DNA of 39,413 nt from a virus (Duplodnaviria; Heunggongvirae; Uroviricota; Caudoviricetes): the IMG/VR virus record IMGVR_UViG_2703718855_000002; one strand, written 5' to 3'. This document shows positions 5,436 through 33,586 of this stretch, in pieces. The notes under the pieces are model-generated. The model was not told the origin of the DNA and did no database searches. It worked only from the letters and a program-made list of their open reading frames with translations. A program made the position numbers and the translations under genes. How positions within the stretch are numbered: position 1 is the first letter of the stretch; every line of letters begins with the position of its first letter.

Positions 5436-5450
5436 TTACCGTTTAGGTAA
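5436..5450. promoter_or_regulatory. Operator-like palindrome TTACCGTTTAGGTAA (left operator region)
   Basis: Perfect TTACC-N5-GGTAA; 62 bp from site 5498. Confidence 0.5.
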
Positions 5451-5497
5451 TAATTATGCGTATTTGGTTTGATGTCAATAGATATGAGTTAAAAAAA

Positions 5498-5512
5498 TTA
5501 CCCATTAGGTAA
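5498..5512. promoter_or_regulatory. Operator-like palindrome TTACCCATTAGGTAA (left operator region)
   Basis: Perfect TTACC-N5-GGTAA with extended A/T flanks. Confidence 0.5.
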
Positions 5513-5524
5513 TAGTGTAGGCAA

Positions 5525-5548
5525 TAAAAAAGCCACCAGAAGGCGGCT
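5525..5548 (-). terminator. Rho-independent terminator after repressor gene
   Basis: Minus-strand hairpin AAGCCGCCTTCTGGTGGCTT followed by TTTTTT (plus-strand A-run 5525..5530). Confidence 0.5.
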
Positions 5549-5569
5549 TACTTACTGAAAAGTATTATT

Positions 5570-6154
5570 TTATTGTTTGTTTTTTTCGTTCTGGTTGATG
5601 ACAAATTCAATGTAACTTTCGATCTTTGCTTTCTCGGTTTCAGGTAACAATGCGTAGCGCGAGCGGTCATAGTTGATAGTTGCAGGGTCGTGCGGGTGAA
5701 TCAGTAGTTCATATCCGTGACGCCCGAATGCAGATGCAACATTCTCCAGGGTGGAAATGGAAACGCTGACCTCATTGTTTAACAGGCGGCTGATTGTCAC
5801 CTGGGCGACGCCGGATGCGCGGTGAAGTTTTCCCTGTGTTGAAAGGTCGCGGCTTTCGCTCATCCAGCGTTCCAGGTTGTGAGCCGCCAGCTGACCAATG
5901 TCGCTTGGGCCGACAGGCTGAAAACCTTCCTGAGAAAGCGAGCGATCGATATCAAGCCAGTTACGGGGTTTATTGGCGGCAGCTTCAATTTTTCGCGCAA
6001 CCTGGTCGCCGATAACCTTCTTGCCAAGAGCCCAGCGGTTTACCAGATTTGCCTGAGTTCCAAGTTTTTCAGCCATCCGCGTCTGAACACCATTGAATTC
6101 ACGGTCGATCAAGTCGTTGAGATTTTGCCTGCGGACGTCCTGGATACTTTTCAT
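5570..6154 (-). CDS. Prophage repressor (CI-like, XRE-type HTH, no S24 peptidase domain)
   Basis: 194 aa; N-terminal HTH (TRMAEKLGTQANLVNRWALGKK); divergent from Cro-like gene with palindromic operators on both sides; C-terminal half has a second HTH-like segment (ASGVAQVTISRLLN). Confidence 0.7.
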   Translation of the reverse strand: MKSIQDVRRQNLNDLIDREFNGVQTRMAEKLGTQANLVNRWALGKKVIGDQVARKIEAAANKPRNWLDIDRSLSQEGFQPVGPSDIGQLAAHNLERWMSESRDLSTQGKLHRASGVAQVTISRLLNNEVSVSISTLENVASAFGRHGYELLIHPHDPATINYDRSRYALLPETEKAKIESYIEFVINQNEKNKQ

Positions 6155-6209: not shown

Positions 6210-6224
6210 TTACCCAATAGGTAA
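6210..6224. promoter_or_regulatory. Operator-like palindrome TTACCCAATAGGTAA (right operator region)
   Basis: Perfect TTACC-N5-GGTAA between repressor and cro-like starts; adjacent partial site 6227..6241. Confidence 0.5.
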
Positions 6225-6257
6225 ATGCACCCCATAGGTAACTATCCTTGATTTTTG

Positions 6258-6272
6258 TTACCTTATGGGTGA
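6258..6272. promoter_or_regulatory. Operator-like palindrome, imperfect (TTACCTTATGGGTGA)
   Basis: One mismatch in right arm; 48 bp from site 6210. Confidence 0.35.
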
Positions 6273-6308: not shown

Positions 6309-6539
6309 ATGAGCGATAACGGACATTTCGATTTCAAAAAGCACTGGCTTGCACTTACTCCGGATGAGCGTGAAGCCTTCGCACAGGAAGCCGGAACGAC
6401 GAGTCATTATATCCAGACTCACTTAACAGGTAAGCGCAAAATGCCAGGTAAAGTATTGATGAATGGGCTTTTTAAAGCCTGTAAAACAAGACAATGGCTG
6501 CGCTCAAAAGCAGAACTGGCATACTTCTTCTACTCATGA
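6309..6539 (+). CDS. Cro-like / YdaS-like small HTH regulator
   Basis: 76 aa, divergent from repressor, followed by a terminator; HTH-like segment EAFAQEAGTTSHYIQTHLTGKRK. Confidence 0.5.
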   Translation: MSDNGHFDFKKHWLALTPDEREAFAQEAGTTSHYIQTHLTGKRKMPGKVLMNGLFKACKTRQWLRSKAELAYFFYS

Positions 6540-6560: not shown

Positions 6561-6584
6561 AGACCGCCATCCGGCGGTCTTTTC
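6561..6584 (+). terminator. Rho-independent terminator (tR1-like) after cro-like gene
   Basis: AGACCGCC-ATCC-GGCGGTCT hairpin followed by TTTT. Confidence 0.6.
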
Positions 6585-6594
6585 ATATCTATTC

Positions 6595-6609
6595 GTACCT
6601 CAAAGGTAA
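6595..6609. promoter_or_regulatory. Operator-like palindrome, imperfect (GTACCTCAAAGGTAA)
   Basis: One mismatch in left arm; lies between tR1-like terminator and next gene. Confidence 0.3.
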
Positions 6610-19798: not shown

Positions 19799-20122
19799 AT
19801 GGAACTCGTAAACCTCAAAACCGGCACTGACAGCTACCAGGATGAGAGCGGAGAAACCAGAACTCGCGATGAATACCCGTGGGGGCTGTGCATCACTCTT
19901 AATAACGACACATTGAATAAGCTGAAGGCGCAACCTAAGGGCGTCGGAACGGAAGTGATGATAACTGCAAAGGCTGTTATTCGAGGCCTGTCTGCCAGAG
20001 AAACTAACGATGGCGTTAATCGCAGCGCCGATCTGCAGATCACTGATATGGCGATCGCTCCTGTTTCCGGGGATGTAGAAAAATCAGCGGCTGAAACTCT
20101 GTACGGTAACGGAGGTGAGTGA
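19799..20122 (+). CDS. Hypothetical protein
   Basis: ATG 19799 after SD GCAGGAG; stop overlaps next start. Confidence 0.4.
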   Translation: MELVNLKTGTDSYQDESGETRTRDEYPWGLCITLNNDTLNKLKAQPKGVGTEVMITAKAVIRGLSARETNDGVNRSADLQITDMAIAPVSGDVEKSAAETLYGNGGE

Positions 20123-31432: not shown

Positions 31433-32065
31433 TTAATGCAGTTTATCTTTGCTTATAACCAGTAGTCTGTGGGTATGCACATCTTTATCACTGCCCCAAC
31501 AGAAATCAGCCCACTGGCTATAGAAATCATCCCATGATGTCATGAAGCTAAGAGGTCTATCTTCTTCAGAGCCATCTGAAACGTATACATTATATCCCGG
31601 GGTGTTTATAGCCCAAGAAATCATTCTTTCCCAGAATCTTCTCCCATCGATTGTTTGTTGCTCATCAGATACAACAATCGCATATTGCTCTAGGAAGAAC
31701 TGAAAAAAAATCTGAGGCAAACCATGAACAGCACGGTCATGAATAACATTAGGCGTACGCCATACCATGATCTGCGTACATGTTCTTTTGGCTTCGACGA
31801 TATCTTCCCGAAAGATTAACTTAACCGCATACACCGTTTCTGGAGTATCGCTGGTAGTAATCATTCTGTAATGATCGCCATTACAAGATTTTACAAGGCG
31901 ATAACCATAAGGTGTTGTGAATCCCGGAAGAACGAAATCAACCACACCTTTCGCTAAGTAGCTTTCGGTGTGACTAGTGTTCTTCTCAGACATGTTCAGT
32001 TTTCTATCGAAATCTGCTTCTGGGATAATGTATGGCATCGCTTTTCTTGTTGTATTTGTTCTCAT
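31433..32065 (-). CDS. Hypothetical protein, no recognisable family (moron; candidate accessory/exclusion function)
   Basis: 210 aa, Trp-rich and acidic; strong SD GGGAGGA; own operator-bearing promoter region and own terminator. Confidence 0.55.
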   Translation of the reverse strand: MRTNTTRKAMPYIIPEADFDRKLNMSEKNTSHTESYLAKGVVDFVLPGFTTPYGYRLVKSCNGDHYRMITTSDTPETVYAVKLIFREDIVEAKRTCTQIMVWRTPNVIHDRAVHGLPQIFFQFFLEQYAIVVSDEQQTIDGRRFWERMISWAINTPGYNVYVSDGSEEDRPLSFMTSWDDFYSQWADFCWGSDKDVHTHRLLVISKDKLH

Positions 32066-32124: not shown

Positions 32125-32139
32125 TTACCCTTGAGGTAA
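32125..32139. promoter_or_regulatory. Operator-like palindrome TTACCCTTGAGGTAA
   Basis: Perfect site 60-74 bp upstream of ATG of 210-aa gene. Confidence 0.5.
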
Positions 32140-32211: not shown

Positions 32212-32922
32212 TCAGAAGAACCCAGCCTTGTCGTTGATGTACTCCGCGTGCGTCTGGATATCACGCAGGCATTTGCTCACACCGACGATGTAGCAGAACA
32301 TGGTGGTCAGTTCCGCCGCCGCGCCCGATACGTCGTGCCCGTCTTCCTGTAACTGGTTTAGCAGATTCATCAGCAGTGAGCTCTCCGTCAGGCCGAGAAC
32401 ACCAGACGGCGAATGAATCAGGCTACGGTAGCCTGGCTTCAGTGGGGCACTGTAGGTTTTGTTCTCTATCTTCATTGCCTGCATCACTGCTGATGCTGTG
32501 GCGTTGGCTACCTGGTCGGCAACCATCTTTATGCGTTCTTCCTGCGGGAGCGAGTTTTTAATGTAACTTCCGGTGCGGCGGATCTGAGGAAGAACCTCAC
32601 CTGTAACCCATTTACGAAAGCGGTAGGGGATAGTGCCTGGTGTCACCGCATCGCGGCAGCGGAGGATCAGTGTGTAGAGGCCTGACTCGGAGATGATGTT
32701 GATCTCTTTTACTCGGCTATCAAAAATTGCACGATGTTCATGCCCTATGTTGAACATAGACCTTTCATCATCATCCAGTTTTTCAAGTGATTGGGTGACG
32801 TTTTGGATACGCAGCGCACTACAAACGTCTTGGGCTACAAACCATGGTTGGCCATCGATAATGATGGAACGGATAGGGTTAACAGATTCAAATTTGAAGA
32901 TGGCAGTTTGAGCATTAGCCAT
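32212..32922 (-). CDS. Antirepressor (N-terminal Bro-N domain)
   Basis: FKFESVNPIRSIIIDGQPWFVAQDVCSALRI matches Bro-N; C-terminal 60 aa paralogous to product of 33238..33495; ATG 32922 with SD GGAGA. Confidence 0.7.
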   Translation of the reverse strand: MANAQTAIFKFESVNPIRSIIIDGQPWFVAQDVCSALRIQNVTQSLEKLDDDERSMFNIGHEHRAIFDSRVKEINIISESGLYTLILRCRDAVTPGTIPYRFRKWVTGEVLPQIRRTGSYIKNSLPQEERIKMVADQVANATASAVMQAMKIENKTYSAPLKPGYRSLIHSPSGVLGLTESSLLMNLLNQLQEDGHDVSGAAAELTTMFCYIVGVSKCLRDIQTHAEYINDKAGFF

Positions 32923-33077
32923 GGTGGTTATCTCCACTTAGTGATTTTAATCACCACCGCAACGCCAATTACTGGTGGTGAACTGGACAAGGTTGGCGTA
33001 CCGGCCTAAGTGGTACCGGCGTCCTTTCGGACCCCTGCCCAGCCCACCATAATTCGGATATGGCTGTGTTTAACGCA

Positions 33078-33237: not shown

Positions 33238-33495
33238 TTATCTGGTTTGTTTTCGTAATTGTTCGGCACAATAGTCGAGATGTGTTTGCAGATCCCGCAT
33301 AGACATCTGTGAGCTGGTGACGTAGTTAATCAGTGCAGTCAGTTCGGCAAGTGGGCCATCGACATTAAATCCATCCTTATCGAGATCCCGGAGTAATTTC
33401 ATCAAGTGCGATCCCTCCACCAGTGATCTGACGCCTCCCGGCGTGTGAATCCTTTCGGTAAATCCGTCTTCCAGTGGATAGTGATACTGCTGCAT
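33238..33495 (-). CDS. Small antirepressor-like protein (stand-alone paralog of the Ant C-terminal domain), LexA-controlled
   Basis: 85 aa from ATG 33495 (SD GGAGA); GGVRSLVEGSHLMKLLRDLDKDGFNVDGPLAELTALINYV aligns with Ant C-terminus SGVLGLTESSLLMNLLNQLQEDGHDVSGAAAELTTMFCYI; LexA box 22 bp upstream. Confidence 0.55.
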   Translation of the reverse strand: MQQYHYPLEDGFTERIHTPGGVRSLVEGSHLMKLLRDLDKDGFNVDGPLAELTALINYVTSSQMSMRDLQTHLDYCAEQLRKQTR

Positions 33496-33516: not shown

Positions 33517-33532
33517 CTGTATATTTATACAG
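33517..33532. promoter_or_regulatory. LexA (SOS) box CTGTATATTTATACAG
   Basis: Perfect CTGT-N8-ACAG with AT-rich spacer, immediately upstream of small antirepressor-like gene. Confidence 0.75.
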
Positions 33533-33571: not shown

Positions 33572-33586
33572 TTACCCGAAAGGTAA
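33572..33586. promoter_or_regulatory. Operator-like palindrome TTACCCGAAAGGTAA
   Basis: Perfect site in divergent region between small antirepressor-like gene and tailspike. Confidence 0.5.

What the first reader, a model, noticed from the sequence alone, without database searches (positions are those of the whole stretch)
5570..6154. Repressor appears to carry two HTH-like segments and lacks a peptidase domain
Besides the N-terminal XRE-type HTH (residues about 20-60), the C-terminal half contains a second HTH-like stretch (LHRASGVAQVTISRLLNNEVSVSISTLENVASAFG). A tandem-HTH repressor could read the two arms of the symmetric operator as a monomer, or the second domain could be the antirepressor-binding surface.
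Basis: inference. Interest (0 to 1): 0.4.

Follow-up and report, generated by a model that had tools for sequence, protein, structure and literature searches.

The report
Known antirepressor-controlled phage repressor, two HTH folds
This is the lysogeny repressor of a phiV10/epsilon15-type phage: it does have two helix-turn-helix folds and no self-cleaving protease, but that design is already solved in a close relative, where the second fold pairs repressor molecules.

Summary
Window 5570..6154 (-) encodes a 194-aa protein with two helix-turn-helix (HTH) folds and no S24 peptidase domain. The second HTH (residues ~85-152) passes Pfam's HTH_3 and HTH_26 cut-offs on its own. The N-terminal one does not.

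None of this is new. The protein is 100% identical to phiV10 gene 40, whose GenBank note already says "two helix-turn-helix motifs". It matches full length (E=4e-42, 41% identity) the Rep repressor of Salmonella phage SPC32H (PDB 5D4Z, 5D50). In SPC32H Rep:
- the N-terminal domain binds DNA;
- the middle HTH-fold domain dimerises the protein;
- the last ~40 residues tetramerise it and dock the antirepressor Ant.

The rest of that module is in the window. An Ant gene (86% identical to SPC32H Ant) sits at 33238..33495 (-), with a perfect LexA box 22 nt upstream. TTACC-N5-GGTAA palindromic operators flank rep.

The "antirepressor-binding surface" idea is close, but points at the wrong segment. 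This is an ordinary member of a characterised family, and interest is low.

The parts
5570..6154 (-). rep: 194-aa lysogeny repressor. It is 100% identical to phiV10p40 and an orthologue of SPC32H Rep.
   Evidence: ORF. PDB 5d50_A E=4e-42 over residues 1-190. 100% tblastn identity to phiV10 and 12 other phage records.
5969..6154 (-). N-terminal domain (residues 1-62): four-helix Cro/YdaS-like HTH. It is basic and is the inferred operator-reading domain.
   Evidence: Helices 4-19, 24-31, 35-43, 50-59. Sub-threshold YdaS_toxin and HTH_3 hits. Net charge +5, pI 10.3. N36, R40, W41 invariant and L37 >=90% conserved. The N-terminal domain is the DNA-binding domain in SPC32H Rep.
5903..5968 (-). Flexible, poorly conserved linker (residues 63-84).
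   Evidence: pLDDT below 50 for residues 63-82. Column entropy 1.78, the highest of all segments.
5699..5902 (-). It corresponds to the dimerisation domain (MDD) of SPC32H Rep.
   Evidence: HTH_3 25.8 bits and HTH_26 24.9 bits when scanned alone. Five helices at pLDDT about 80-87. 5d4z_H TM 0.80. MDD role from PMC9986798. Net charge -1.
5573..5698 (-). C-terminal segment (residues 153-194). It corresponds to the CAD of SPC32H Rep, which tetramerises the protein and binds Ant.
   Evidence: Aligned to 5d50_A and 5d4z_A through residue 190. Y162, L170, F184 invariant and D163, P171 >=90% conserved. Role from PMC9986798. The monomer model is weak here, with pLDDT about 54-74.
6210..6272 (.). O_R-like operator cluster between rep and the divergent cro-like gene. 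Sites: TTACCCAATAGGTAA (6210-6224), GCACCCCATAGGTAA (6227-6241, 2 mismatches), TTACCTTATGGGTGA (6258-6272, 1 mismatch).
   Evidence: A promoter-like site on the + strand (-35 at 6255, -10 ending 6283) overlaps the third site. The same 17 + 30/31 bp arrangement occurs in SPC32H and epsilon15.
5436..5512 (.). O_L-like operator pair, 62 bp apart: TTACCGTTTAGGTAA (5436-5450) and TTACCCATTAGGTAA (5498-5512). They bracket a leftward promoter-like site.
   Evidence: Minus-strand -35 TTGACA at 5478 and -10 ending at 5450. The same 62-63 bp pair is present in SPC32H, BUCT711, epsilon15 and Tyrion.
5530..5549 (-). Intrinsic terminator-like hairpin just after the rep stop codon.
   Evidence: Annotated as a terminator in phiV10.
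6309..6539 (+). Divergent cro-like gene (76 aa).
   Evidence: ORF. phrog_35 'transcriptional repressor' E=5.6e-13. No Pfam hit.
33238..33495 (-). ant: 85-aa antirepressor, 86% identical to SPC32H Ant.
   Evidence: PDB 5d50_E 'Anti-repressor protein' E=1.4e-46. Identity.
33517..33532 (.). LexA box CTGTATATTTATACAG, 22 nt upstream of the ant start codon.
   Evidence: The same 22-nt offset occurs in SPC32H, whose box is at 19958 and whose ant start is at 19936.
33572..33586 (.). Rep-type palindrome TTACCCGAAAGGTAA, 77 nt upstream of the ant start, in the ant / tail-spike intergenic region.
   Evidence: Same offset in SPC32H (20013 versus 19936). Annotated as a repressor-binding site in epsilon15.

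Best explanation
The gene encodes the lysogeny-maintenance repressor (Rep) of a phiV10-like Uetakevirus, an epsilon15-like podophage. It is an orthologue of Salmonella phage SPC32H Rep and most likely works the same way.

- The basic N-terminal HTH domain (residues 1-62) reads the 15-bp palindromes TTACC-N5-GGTAA as symmetric pairs.
- The second, XRE-type HTH fold (residues 85-152) is used as a protein-protein dimerisation module and does not read DNA.
- The last ~40 residues (153-194) join two dimers into the DNA-binding tetramer and form the docking site for the small antirepressor Ant.
- Rep has no S24 peptidase domain, so RecA-stimulated cleavage does not apply. DNA damage cleaves host LexA, which frees the LexA box in front of ant. 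Ant is then made, binds the Rep C-terminal domains and takes the tetramer off DNA.

What is shown here: homology, fold, lack of a peptidase domain, presence of ant, the LexA box and the operators.

What is inferred from the solved homologue: the domain roles, the oligomeric state and the Ant mechanism.

My own inference: one tetramer (two N-terminal-domain pairs) occupies each pair of palindromes spaced 62 bp apart.
For: - Full-length match to 5d50_A Repressor (E=4e-42, residues 1-190) and to 5d4z_A Rep(92-198) (E=4e-20).
- Domain roles of SPC32H Rep (DNA-binding domain, MDD, CAD) come from PMC9986798. Tetrameric DNA binding and the Ant tetramer binding two Rep dimers come from PMC9638917.
- The Ant homologue matches at E=1.4e-46 and 86% identity.
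- A perfect LexA box lies 22 nt upstream of ant, the same offset as in SPC32H.
- There are 14 TTACC-N5-GGTAA sites (<=1 mismatch) against 0.71 expected, and none of 100 shuffles reached 14.
- These sites sit at syntenic positions in SPC32H, BUCT711, epsilon15 and Tyrion. In the epsilon15 RefSeq record they are annotated as repressor-binding sites.
- N-terminal domain charge is +5 against -1 for the middle domain.
- The N-terminal helix-3 core is conserved (N36, R40, W41 invariant; L37 >=90%) alongside an unchanged half-site.
- No S24 peptidase hit.
- The window is 98.5% identical to phiV10 across this region.
Against: - Nothing here was measured for this protein. Identity to the solved homologue is only 41% overall and 32% in the middle domain, so interface details could differ.
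- The primary papers (Kim & Ryu 2013; Kim et al. 2016) could not be read. The domain roles therefore rest on secondary descriptions.
- Q118 (>=90%) and R123 (invariant) in helix 3 of the middle domain are conserved. That is compatible with an interface role but does not by itself exclude a DNA contact.
- The monomer model does not reproduce a beta-strand in the CAD.
Confidence: 0.85

Rival explanations
1. Tandem-HTH monomer. One polypeptide places its N-terminal HTH on one arm of the palindrome and its second HTH on the other.
For: Two HTH folds are joined by a ~22-residue flexible linker, which is physically long enough to span 10 bp. The HTH_3 signature in the second domain is intact.
Against: - The half-sites are identical inverted repeats, yet the two domains share no sequence similarity and have different third helices.
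- The second domain is near neutral in charge across the family.
- Its helix 3 varies between phages that keep the same TTACC half-site.
- The homologue binds DNA as a tetramer through paired N-terminal domains, and its dimer binds weakly.
Confidence: 0.03
2. The second HTH fold itself (residues ~106-147) is the main antirepressor-binding surface.
For: In the homologue, Ant binds the C-terminal part of Rep. The crystallised C-terminal fragment 92-198 includes this HTH fold.
Against: PMC9986798 attributes Ant interaction and tetramerisation to the CAD, the extreme C-terminal element. It assigns dimerisation to the middle domain. The CAD is better conserved with SPC32H (47%) than the middle domain is (32%), while Ant is 86% conserved. 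That fits the CAD as the conserved docking site.
Confidence: 0.08
3. Dual role: the middle HTH fold dimerises the protein and also makes auxiliary DNA contacts, either non-specific or to flanking and spacer DNA. A tetramer would then engage DNA with up to eight HTH units.
For: Q118 (>=90%) and R123 (invariant) sit in the position of a recognition helix. The local helix 2-3 segment is positively charged at +3. Operator pairs 62 bp apart leave intervening DNA that could be contacted.
Against: The whole domain is about neutral in charge. No source I could read reports DNA binding by this domain. Conservation of two residues is equally well explained by an interface role.
Confidence: 0.05

Closest known systems
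Rep repressor of Salmonella phage SPC32H (PDB 5D4Z, 5D50; Kim & Ryu 2013, Kim et al. 2016) and its epsilon15 orthologue gp38
   Same: - Same genus (Uetakevirus) and same gene position, divergent from a cro-like gene.
- Full-length homology at E=4e-42.
- Same three-part layout: N-terminal HTH, middle HTH-fold domain and C-terminal Ant-binding tail. No peptidase domain.
- Same TTACC-N5-GGTAA palindromes at the same genome positions.
- Same LexA-box-controlled small Ant, 86% identical.
   Different: Only 41% identical overall (N-terminal domain 55%, middle 32%, C-terminal 47%). The host is E. coli. Nothing has been measured for this protein. This phage also carries a second, Bro-N-fused Ant-like protein that is not annotated in SPC32H.
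phiV10 gene 40 product (YP_512295.1)
   Same: 100% identical protein. The GenBank note already records 'two helix-turn-helix motifs (PF01381)' and 'putative repressor'.
   Different: None at the protein level. The window differs from phiV10 elsewhere, for example in the Bro-N gene.
Lambda CI, 434 and P22 c2 repressors (HTH plus S24 peptidase, RecA-stimulated autocleavage)
   Same: N-terminal HTH reading palindromic operators. Divergent rep/cro layout with O_L-like and O_R-like operator clusters. SOS-inducible.
   Different: No S24 domain. The SOS signal arrives through LexA and Ant, not through repressor cleavage. Oligomerisation uses an HTH-fold domain plus a short C-terminal element.
SinR/SinI of Bacillus subtilis and Rco/Rap of plasmid pLS20
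   Same: An XRE HTH DNA-binding domain plus a small C-terminal tetramerisation element that a small protein antagonist targets.
   Different: They have no intervening second HTH-fold dimerisation domain and are unrelated in sequence outside the HTH.
LexA-controlled antirepressors of phage 186 (Tum) and the Gifsy/Fels prophages
   Same: The same logic of SOS induction through a LexA-repressed antirepressor acting on a non-cleavable repressor.
   Different: From my own knowledge of Kim & Ryu 2013: the SPC32H-type Ant is described as structurally distinct from those antirepressors. This was not tested here.

Membership tests
SPC32H-type Rep (Uetakevirus antirepressor-controlled repressor) | Full-length sequence homology covering the N-terminal, middle and C-terminal domains | tested here: met
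   5d50_A E=4e-42, query residues 1-190 aligned to chain residues 2-197. 41% global identity to SPC32H Rep.
SPC32H-type Rep (Uetakevirus antirepressor-controlled repressor) | The C-terminal half adopts the fold of crystallised Rep(92-198): a five-helix HTH-fold domain plus a C-terminal tail | tested here: met
SPC32H-type Rep (Uetakevirus antirepressor-controlled repressor) | No autocleavage (S24 peptidase) domain | tested here: met
   No Peptidase_S24 hit at E<=10. All 194 residues are accounted for by the three segments.
SPC32H-type Rep (Uetakevirus antirepressor-controlled repressor) | A cognate small Ant is encoded in the same genome | tested here: met
   Window 33238..33495 (-), 85 aa. 5d50_E E=1.4e-46. 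86% identity.
SPC32H-type Rep (Uetakevirus antirepressor-controlled repressor) | ant preceded by a LexA box | tested here: met
   CTGTATATTTATACAG at 33517-33532, 22 nt from the ant start, the same offset as in SPC32H. This is sequence level only. LexA binding was not tested.
SPC32H-type Rep (Uetakevirus antirepressor-controlled repressor) | Palindromic operators of the family type flanking rep | tested here: met
   TTACC-N5-GGTAA: 14 sites against 0.71 expected. Same motif, spacing and synteny in SPC32H, BUCT711, epsilon15 and Tyrion. Annotated as repressor-binding sites in epsilon15.
SPC32H-type Rep (Uetakevirus antirepressor-controlled repressor) | Tetramer (dimer of dimers) as the DNA-binding form, taken apart by tetrameric Ant | not testable with these tools
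   Known for SPC32H Rep only, from the literature. It needs SEC-MALS, gel-shift or structure determination for this protein.
CI/LexA-type autocleavable repressors (HTH plus Peptidase_S24) | C-terminal S24 peptidase domain with a Ser/Lys dyad and a cleavage site | tested here: not met
   No S24 hit. The C-terminal half is an HTH fold plus a short helical tail.
Tandem-HTH DNA readers (both HTH units contact DNA within one polypeptide) | Both HTH units are DNA-binding competent and the binding site is made of two different sub-sites | tested here: not met
   The operators are symmetric with identical half-sites. The second domain is about neutral in charge, and its helix 3 varies while the half-site stays constant. 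Direct DNA binding could not be tested.

The most novel reading that the evidence does not exclude
The middle HTH-fold domain is not only a dimerisation module. It keeps a DNA contact through conserved Q118 and R123, so a Rep tetramer would grip the DNA between or beside paired operators with extra HTH units. That would help explain the conserved 62-bp operator pairs that bracket promoters.
Probability: 0.05. Interest if true: 0.45.

Novelty: already known. Interest (0 to 1): 0.1.

Why it matters
It matters little beyond correct annotation. The gene should be labelled as an SPC32H-type, Ant-controlled, non-cleavable repressor, not as a generic XRE regulator. The second HTH should not be read as a second DNA-reading head. 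The case is a useful caution: the domain with the stronger HTH_3 signature is, in the solved relative, a protein-protein module, while the weaker N-terminal HTH binds DNA. For phiV10-type phages used as E. coli O157 reporter or typing phages, the practical point is that induction runs through LexA and Ant.

Tried and rejected
- I tried to read the primary papers and none is held in the library: Kim et al. 2016 PNAS by DOI and by PMC4983836, Kim & Ryu 2013 as PMC3807360, and Kropinski et al. 2007 as PMC2698709. The domain roles therefore come from papers that describe those results.
- A literature search for phiV10 plus repressor found nothing specific.
- I tested for an internal duplication. 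BLASTP of residues 1-75 against residues 84-194 gave no alignment at E<=100, so a recent tandem duplication is rejected.
- I rejected an S24-type repressor because there is no peptidase hit.
- I considered that the scattered palindromes might be a new 'distributed operator' finding. I rejected that as novel because the same sites are already annotated as repressor-binding sites in the epsilon15 RefSeq record.
- The homologue with a solved structure settled the question.

Full report
**1. Observation**

Window 5570..6154 (minus strand) is an ATG-initiated ORF of 194 aa.

- On the whole protein, Pfam reports HTH_3 at E=1.2e-9 (38.5 bits, cut-off 23) with two stretches. The better stretch is at residues 106-147. 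The N-terminal region gives only sub-threshold Cro/YdaS-type hits, and there is no Peptidase_S24 hit.
- Scanned separately, residues 85-194 pass the curated cut-offs of HTH_3 (25.8 bits against 23) and HTH_26 (24.9 bits against 22). Residues 1-84 do not: HTH_3 scores 15.8 bits and YdaS_toxin 20.3 bits against a cut-off of 30.

By sequence, the more canonical XRE HTH is the second one.

**2. Structure**

An AlphaFold2 model built on 32 homologues (alignment A1) has mean pLDDT 73. It shows:

- a four-helix N-terminal domain (helices 4-19, 24-31, 35-43, 50-59);
- a disordered linker (residues 63-82, pLDDT below 50);
- a five-helix domain (85-100, 107-114, 118-125, 133-142, 147-151) at pLDDT of about 80-87;
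- a helical tail (164-168, 172-193) of lower confidence.

**3. Identity**

- The region is 98.5% identical in DNA to Escherichia phage phiV10 (genus Uetakevirus, epsilon15-like).
- The protein is 100% identical to phiV10p40. Its public annotation already reads 'two helix-turn-helix motifs (PF01381); similar to putative repressor epsilon15p38'.
- phmmer against PDB sequences matches 5d50_A 'Repressor' over residues 1-190 (E=4e-42) and the fragment 5d4z_A (E=4e-20). This is Rep of Salmonella phage SPC32H, another Uetakevirus, at 41% global identity.
- The epsilon15 RefSeq note for its repressor also cites HHpred 5d50_A.
- 86 homologous clusters were found, all in Enterobacteriaceae where a source names the organism.

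**4. What is known about the solved homologue**

I could not open the primary papers. Papers that describe them state the following.

- SPC32H Rep has an N-terminal DNA-binding domain, a middle dimerisation domain (MDD) and a C-terminal domain (CAD). The CAD drives tetramerisation and is responsible for the interaction with the antirepressor Ant (PMC9986798).
- Rep binds DNA as a tetramer and the dimer binds weakly. The N-terminal domain pairs that bind a palindrome come from different dimers. Tetrameric Ant binds two Rep dimers and breaks the tetramer (PMC9638917; also PMC6868357).
- In Salmonella prophages of this kind, an Ant made after LexA self-cleavage inhibits a non-cleaved repressor (PMC7380047).

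From my own memory of Kim & Ryu 2013 and Kim et al. 2016, which I did not verify here: Rep is not cleaved during SOS, ant is LexA-repressed, and Ant binds the Rep C-terminal domains without competing for the DNA-binding surface.

**5. The rest of the module is present in the window**

- An 85-aa ORF at 33238..33495 (-) matches 5d50_E 'Anti-repressor protein' at E=1.4e-46. It is 86% identical to SPC32H Ant.
- A perfect LexA box, CTGTATATTTATACAG, lies at 33517-33532, 22 nt upstream of the ant start. SPC32H has the same offset.

**6. Operators**

- The palindrome TTACC-N5-GGTAA occurs 14 times at <=1 mismatch, 10 of them perfect, against 0.71 expected. None of 100 shuffles reached 14.
- Three sites lie between rep and the divergent cro-like gene: 6210, 6227 (2 mismatches) and 6258. 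The third overlaps a rightward promoter-like site.
- Two perfect sites 62 bp apart (5436 and 5498) bracket a leftward promoter-like site just beyond the rep terminator.
- The same motif, with the same spacings (17 + 30/31 bp; 62-63 bp pairs) and at the same syntenic positions, is present in SPC32H, Klebsiella phage BUCT711, epsilon15 and Enterobacter phage Tyrion.
- In the epsilon15 RefSeq record these exact sequences are annotated as 'protein_bind: repressor'. This feature is therefore not new either.

**7. Which HTH reads the DNA?**

Four lines of evidence point to the N-terminal domain.

- The half-sites are identical and inverted, which calls for two identical heads. The two domains show no similarity to each other.
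- The half-site TTACC is unchanged across phages whose Reps are 41-78% identical to the window's. The N-terminal helix-3 core N36, R40, W41 is invariant and L37 is >=90% conserved. In helix 3 of the middle domain only R123 is invariant.
- The N-terminal domain is basic (net +5, pI 10.3; family range +3 to +7). The middle domain is about neutral (-1; family range -2 to +2).
- The N-terminal domain is the best-conserved part against SPC32H, at 55% identity compared with 32% for the middle domain.

These agree with the published assignment. They are indirect, because no binding was measured.

**8. Mechanism (best explanation, confidence 0.85)**

- Rep tetramers hold lytic promoters off by placing N-terminal domain pairs on the palindromes.
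- The second HTH fold is the dimer interface.
- The C-terminal tail makes the tetramer and is where Ant docks.
- SOS leads to LexA cleavage, then ant expression, then removal of Rep from DNA without proteolysis.
- My own inference is that each 62-bp operator pair is filled by one tetramer. 62 bp is about six helical turns, so the two sites face the same side of the DNA.

Rival explanations and confidences: a tandem-HTH monomer (0.03), the HTH stretch itself as the Ant surface (0.08), and a dual role with auxiliary DNA contacts (0.05).

**9. Verdict**

This is already known: an identical protein is annotated with two HTH motifs, and the architecture and mechanism are solved in a congener. Interest is low.

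Noticed in passing
window 32212..32937 (-): A 241-aa protein joins a Bro-N domain (PF02498, E=3.6e-19, residues 22-117) to a C-terminal segment (residues 160-233) that is 43% identical to the small Ant. The phage therefore carries a second Ant-type domain. In phiV10 the corresponding gene is shorter or split (p23 of 194 aa plus p22 of 29 aa). No such gene is annotated in SPC32H. Whether it also acts on Rep is unknown.
   Followed up: partly
window 5436, 5498, 6210, 6227, 6258, 6595, 8541, 8603, 11755, 11773, 14916, 32125, 33192, 33572, 36217 (each 15 bp): Rep-type palindromes TTACC-N5-GGTAA precede nearly every transcription unit: leftward early, rightward early, after the replication genes, small terminase, the portal module, ant and lysis. 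Pairs 62 bp apart occur at 5436/5498 and 8541/8603. Positions are syntenic in four other Uetakeviruses, and epsilon15 RefSeq annotates them as repressor sites.
   Followed up: yes
window 33238..33495 (-) compared with 5570..6154 (-): Conservation is uneven. Ant is 86% identical to SPC32H Ant, while its target Rep is only 41% identical (C-terminal tail 47%). The operator half-site is also shared across the genus. Together these suggest possible cross-induction or cross-immunity between E. coli, Salmonella and Klebsiella phages of the group. This was not tested.
   Followed up: partly
window 31433..32065 (-): A 210-aa ORF has a full-length match to phrog_1349 (unknown function, E=3e-113) and no Pfam hit. 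A Rep-type palindrome sits just upstream at 32125. It looks like an accessory (moron-like) gene that may be under Rep control.
   Followed up: no
protein P0064 (homologue): One homologue (193 aa, NCBI source) keeps the N-terminal and C-terminal parts but is scrambled over roughly residues 55-115 in the alignment. The pattern looks like a double frameshift or a pseudogene.
   Followed up: no
window 6309..6539 (+): The divergent 76-aa cro-like gene has no Pfam hit at E<=0.1 but matches phrog_35 'transcriptional repressor' (E=5.6e-13). It is followed by a terminator at 6561-6580 and a further near-perfect palindrome at 6595.
   Followed up: no
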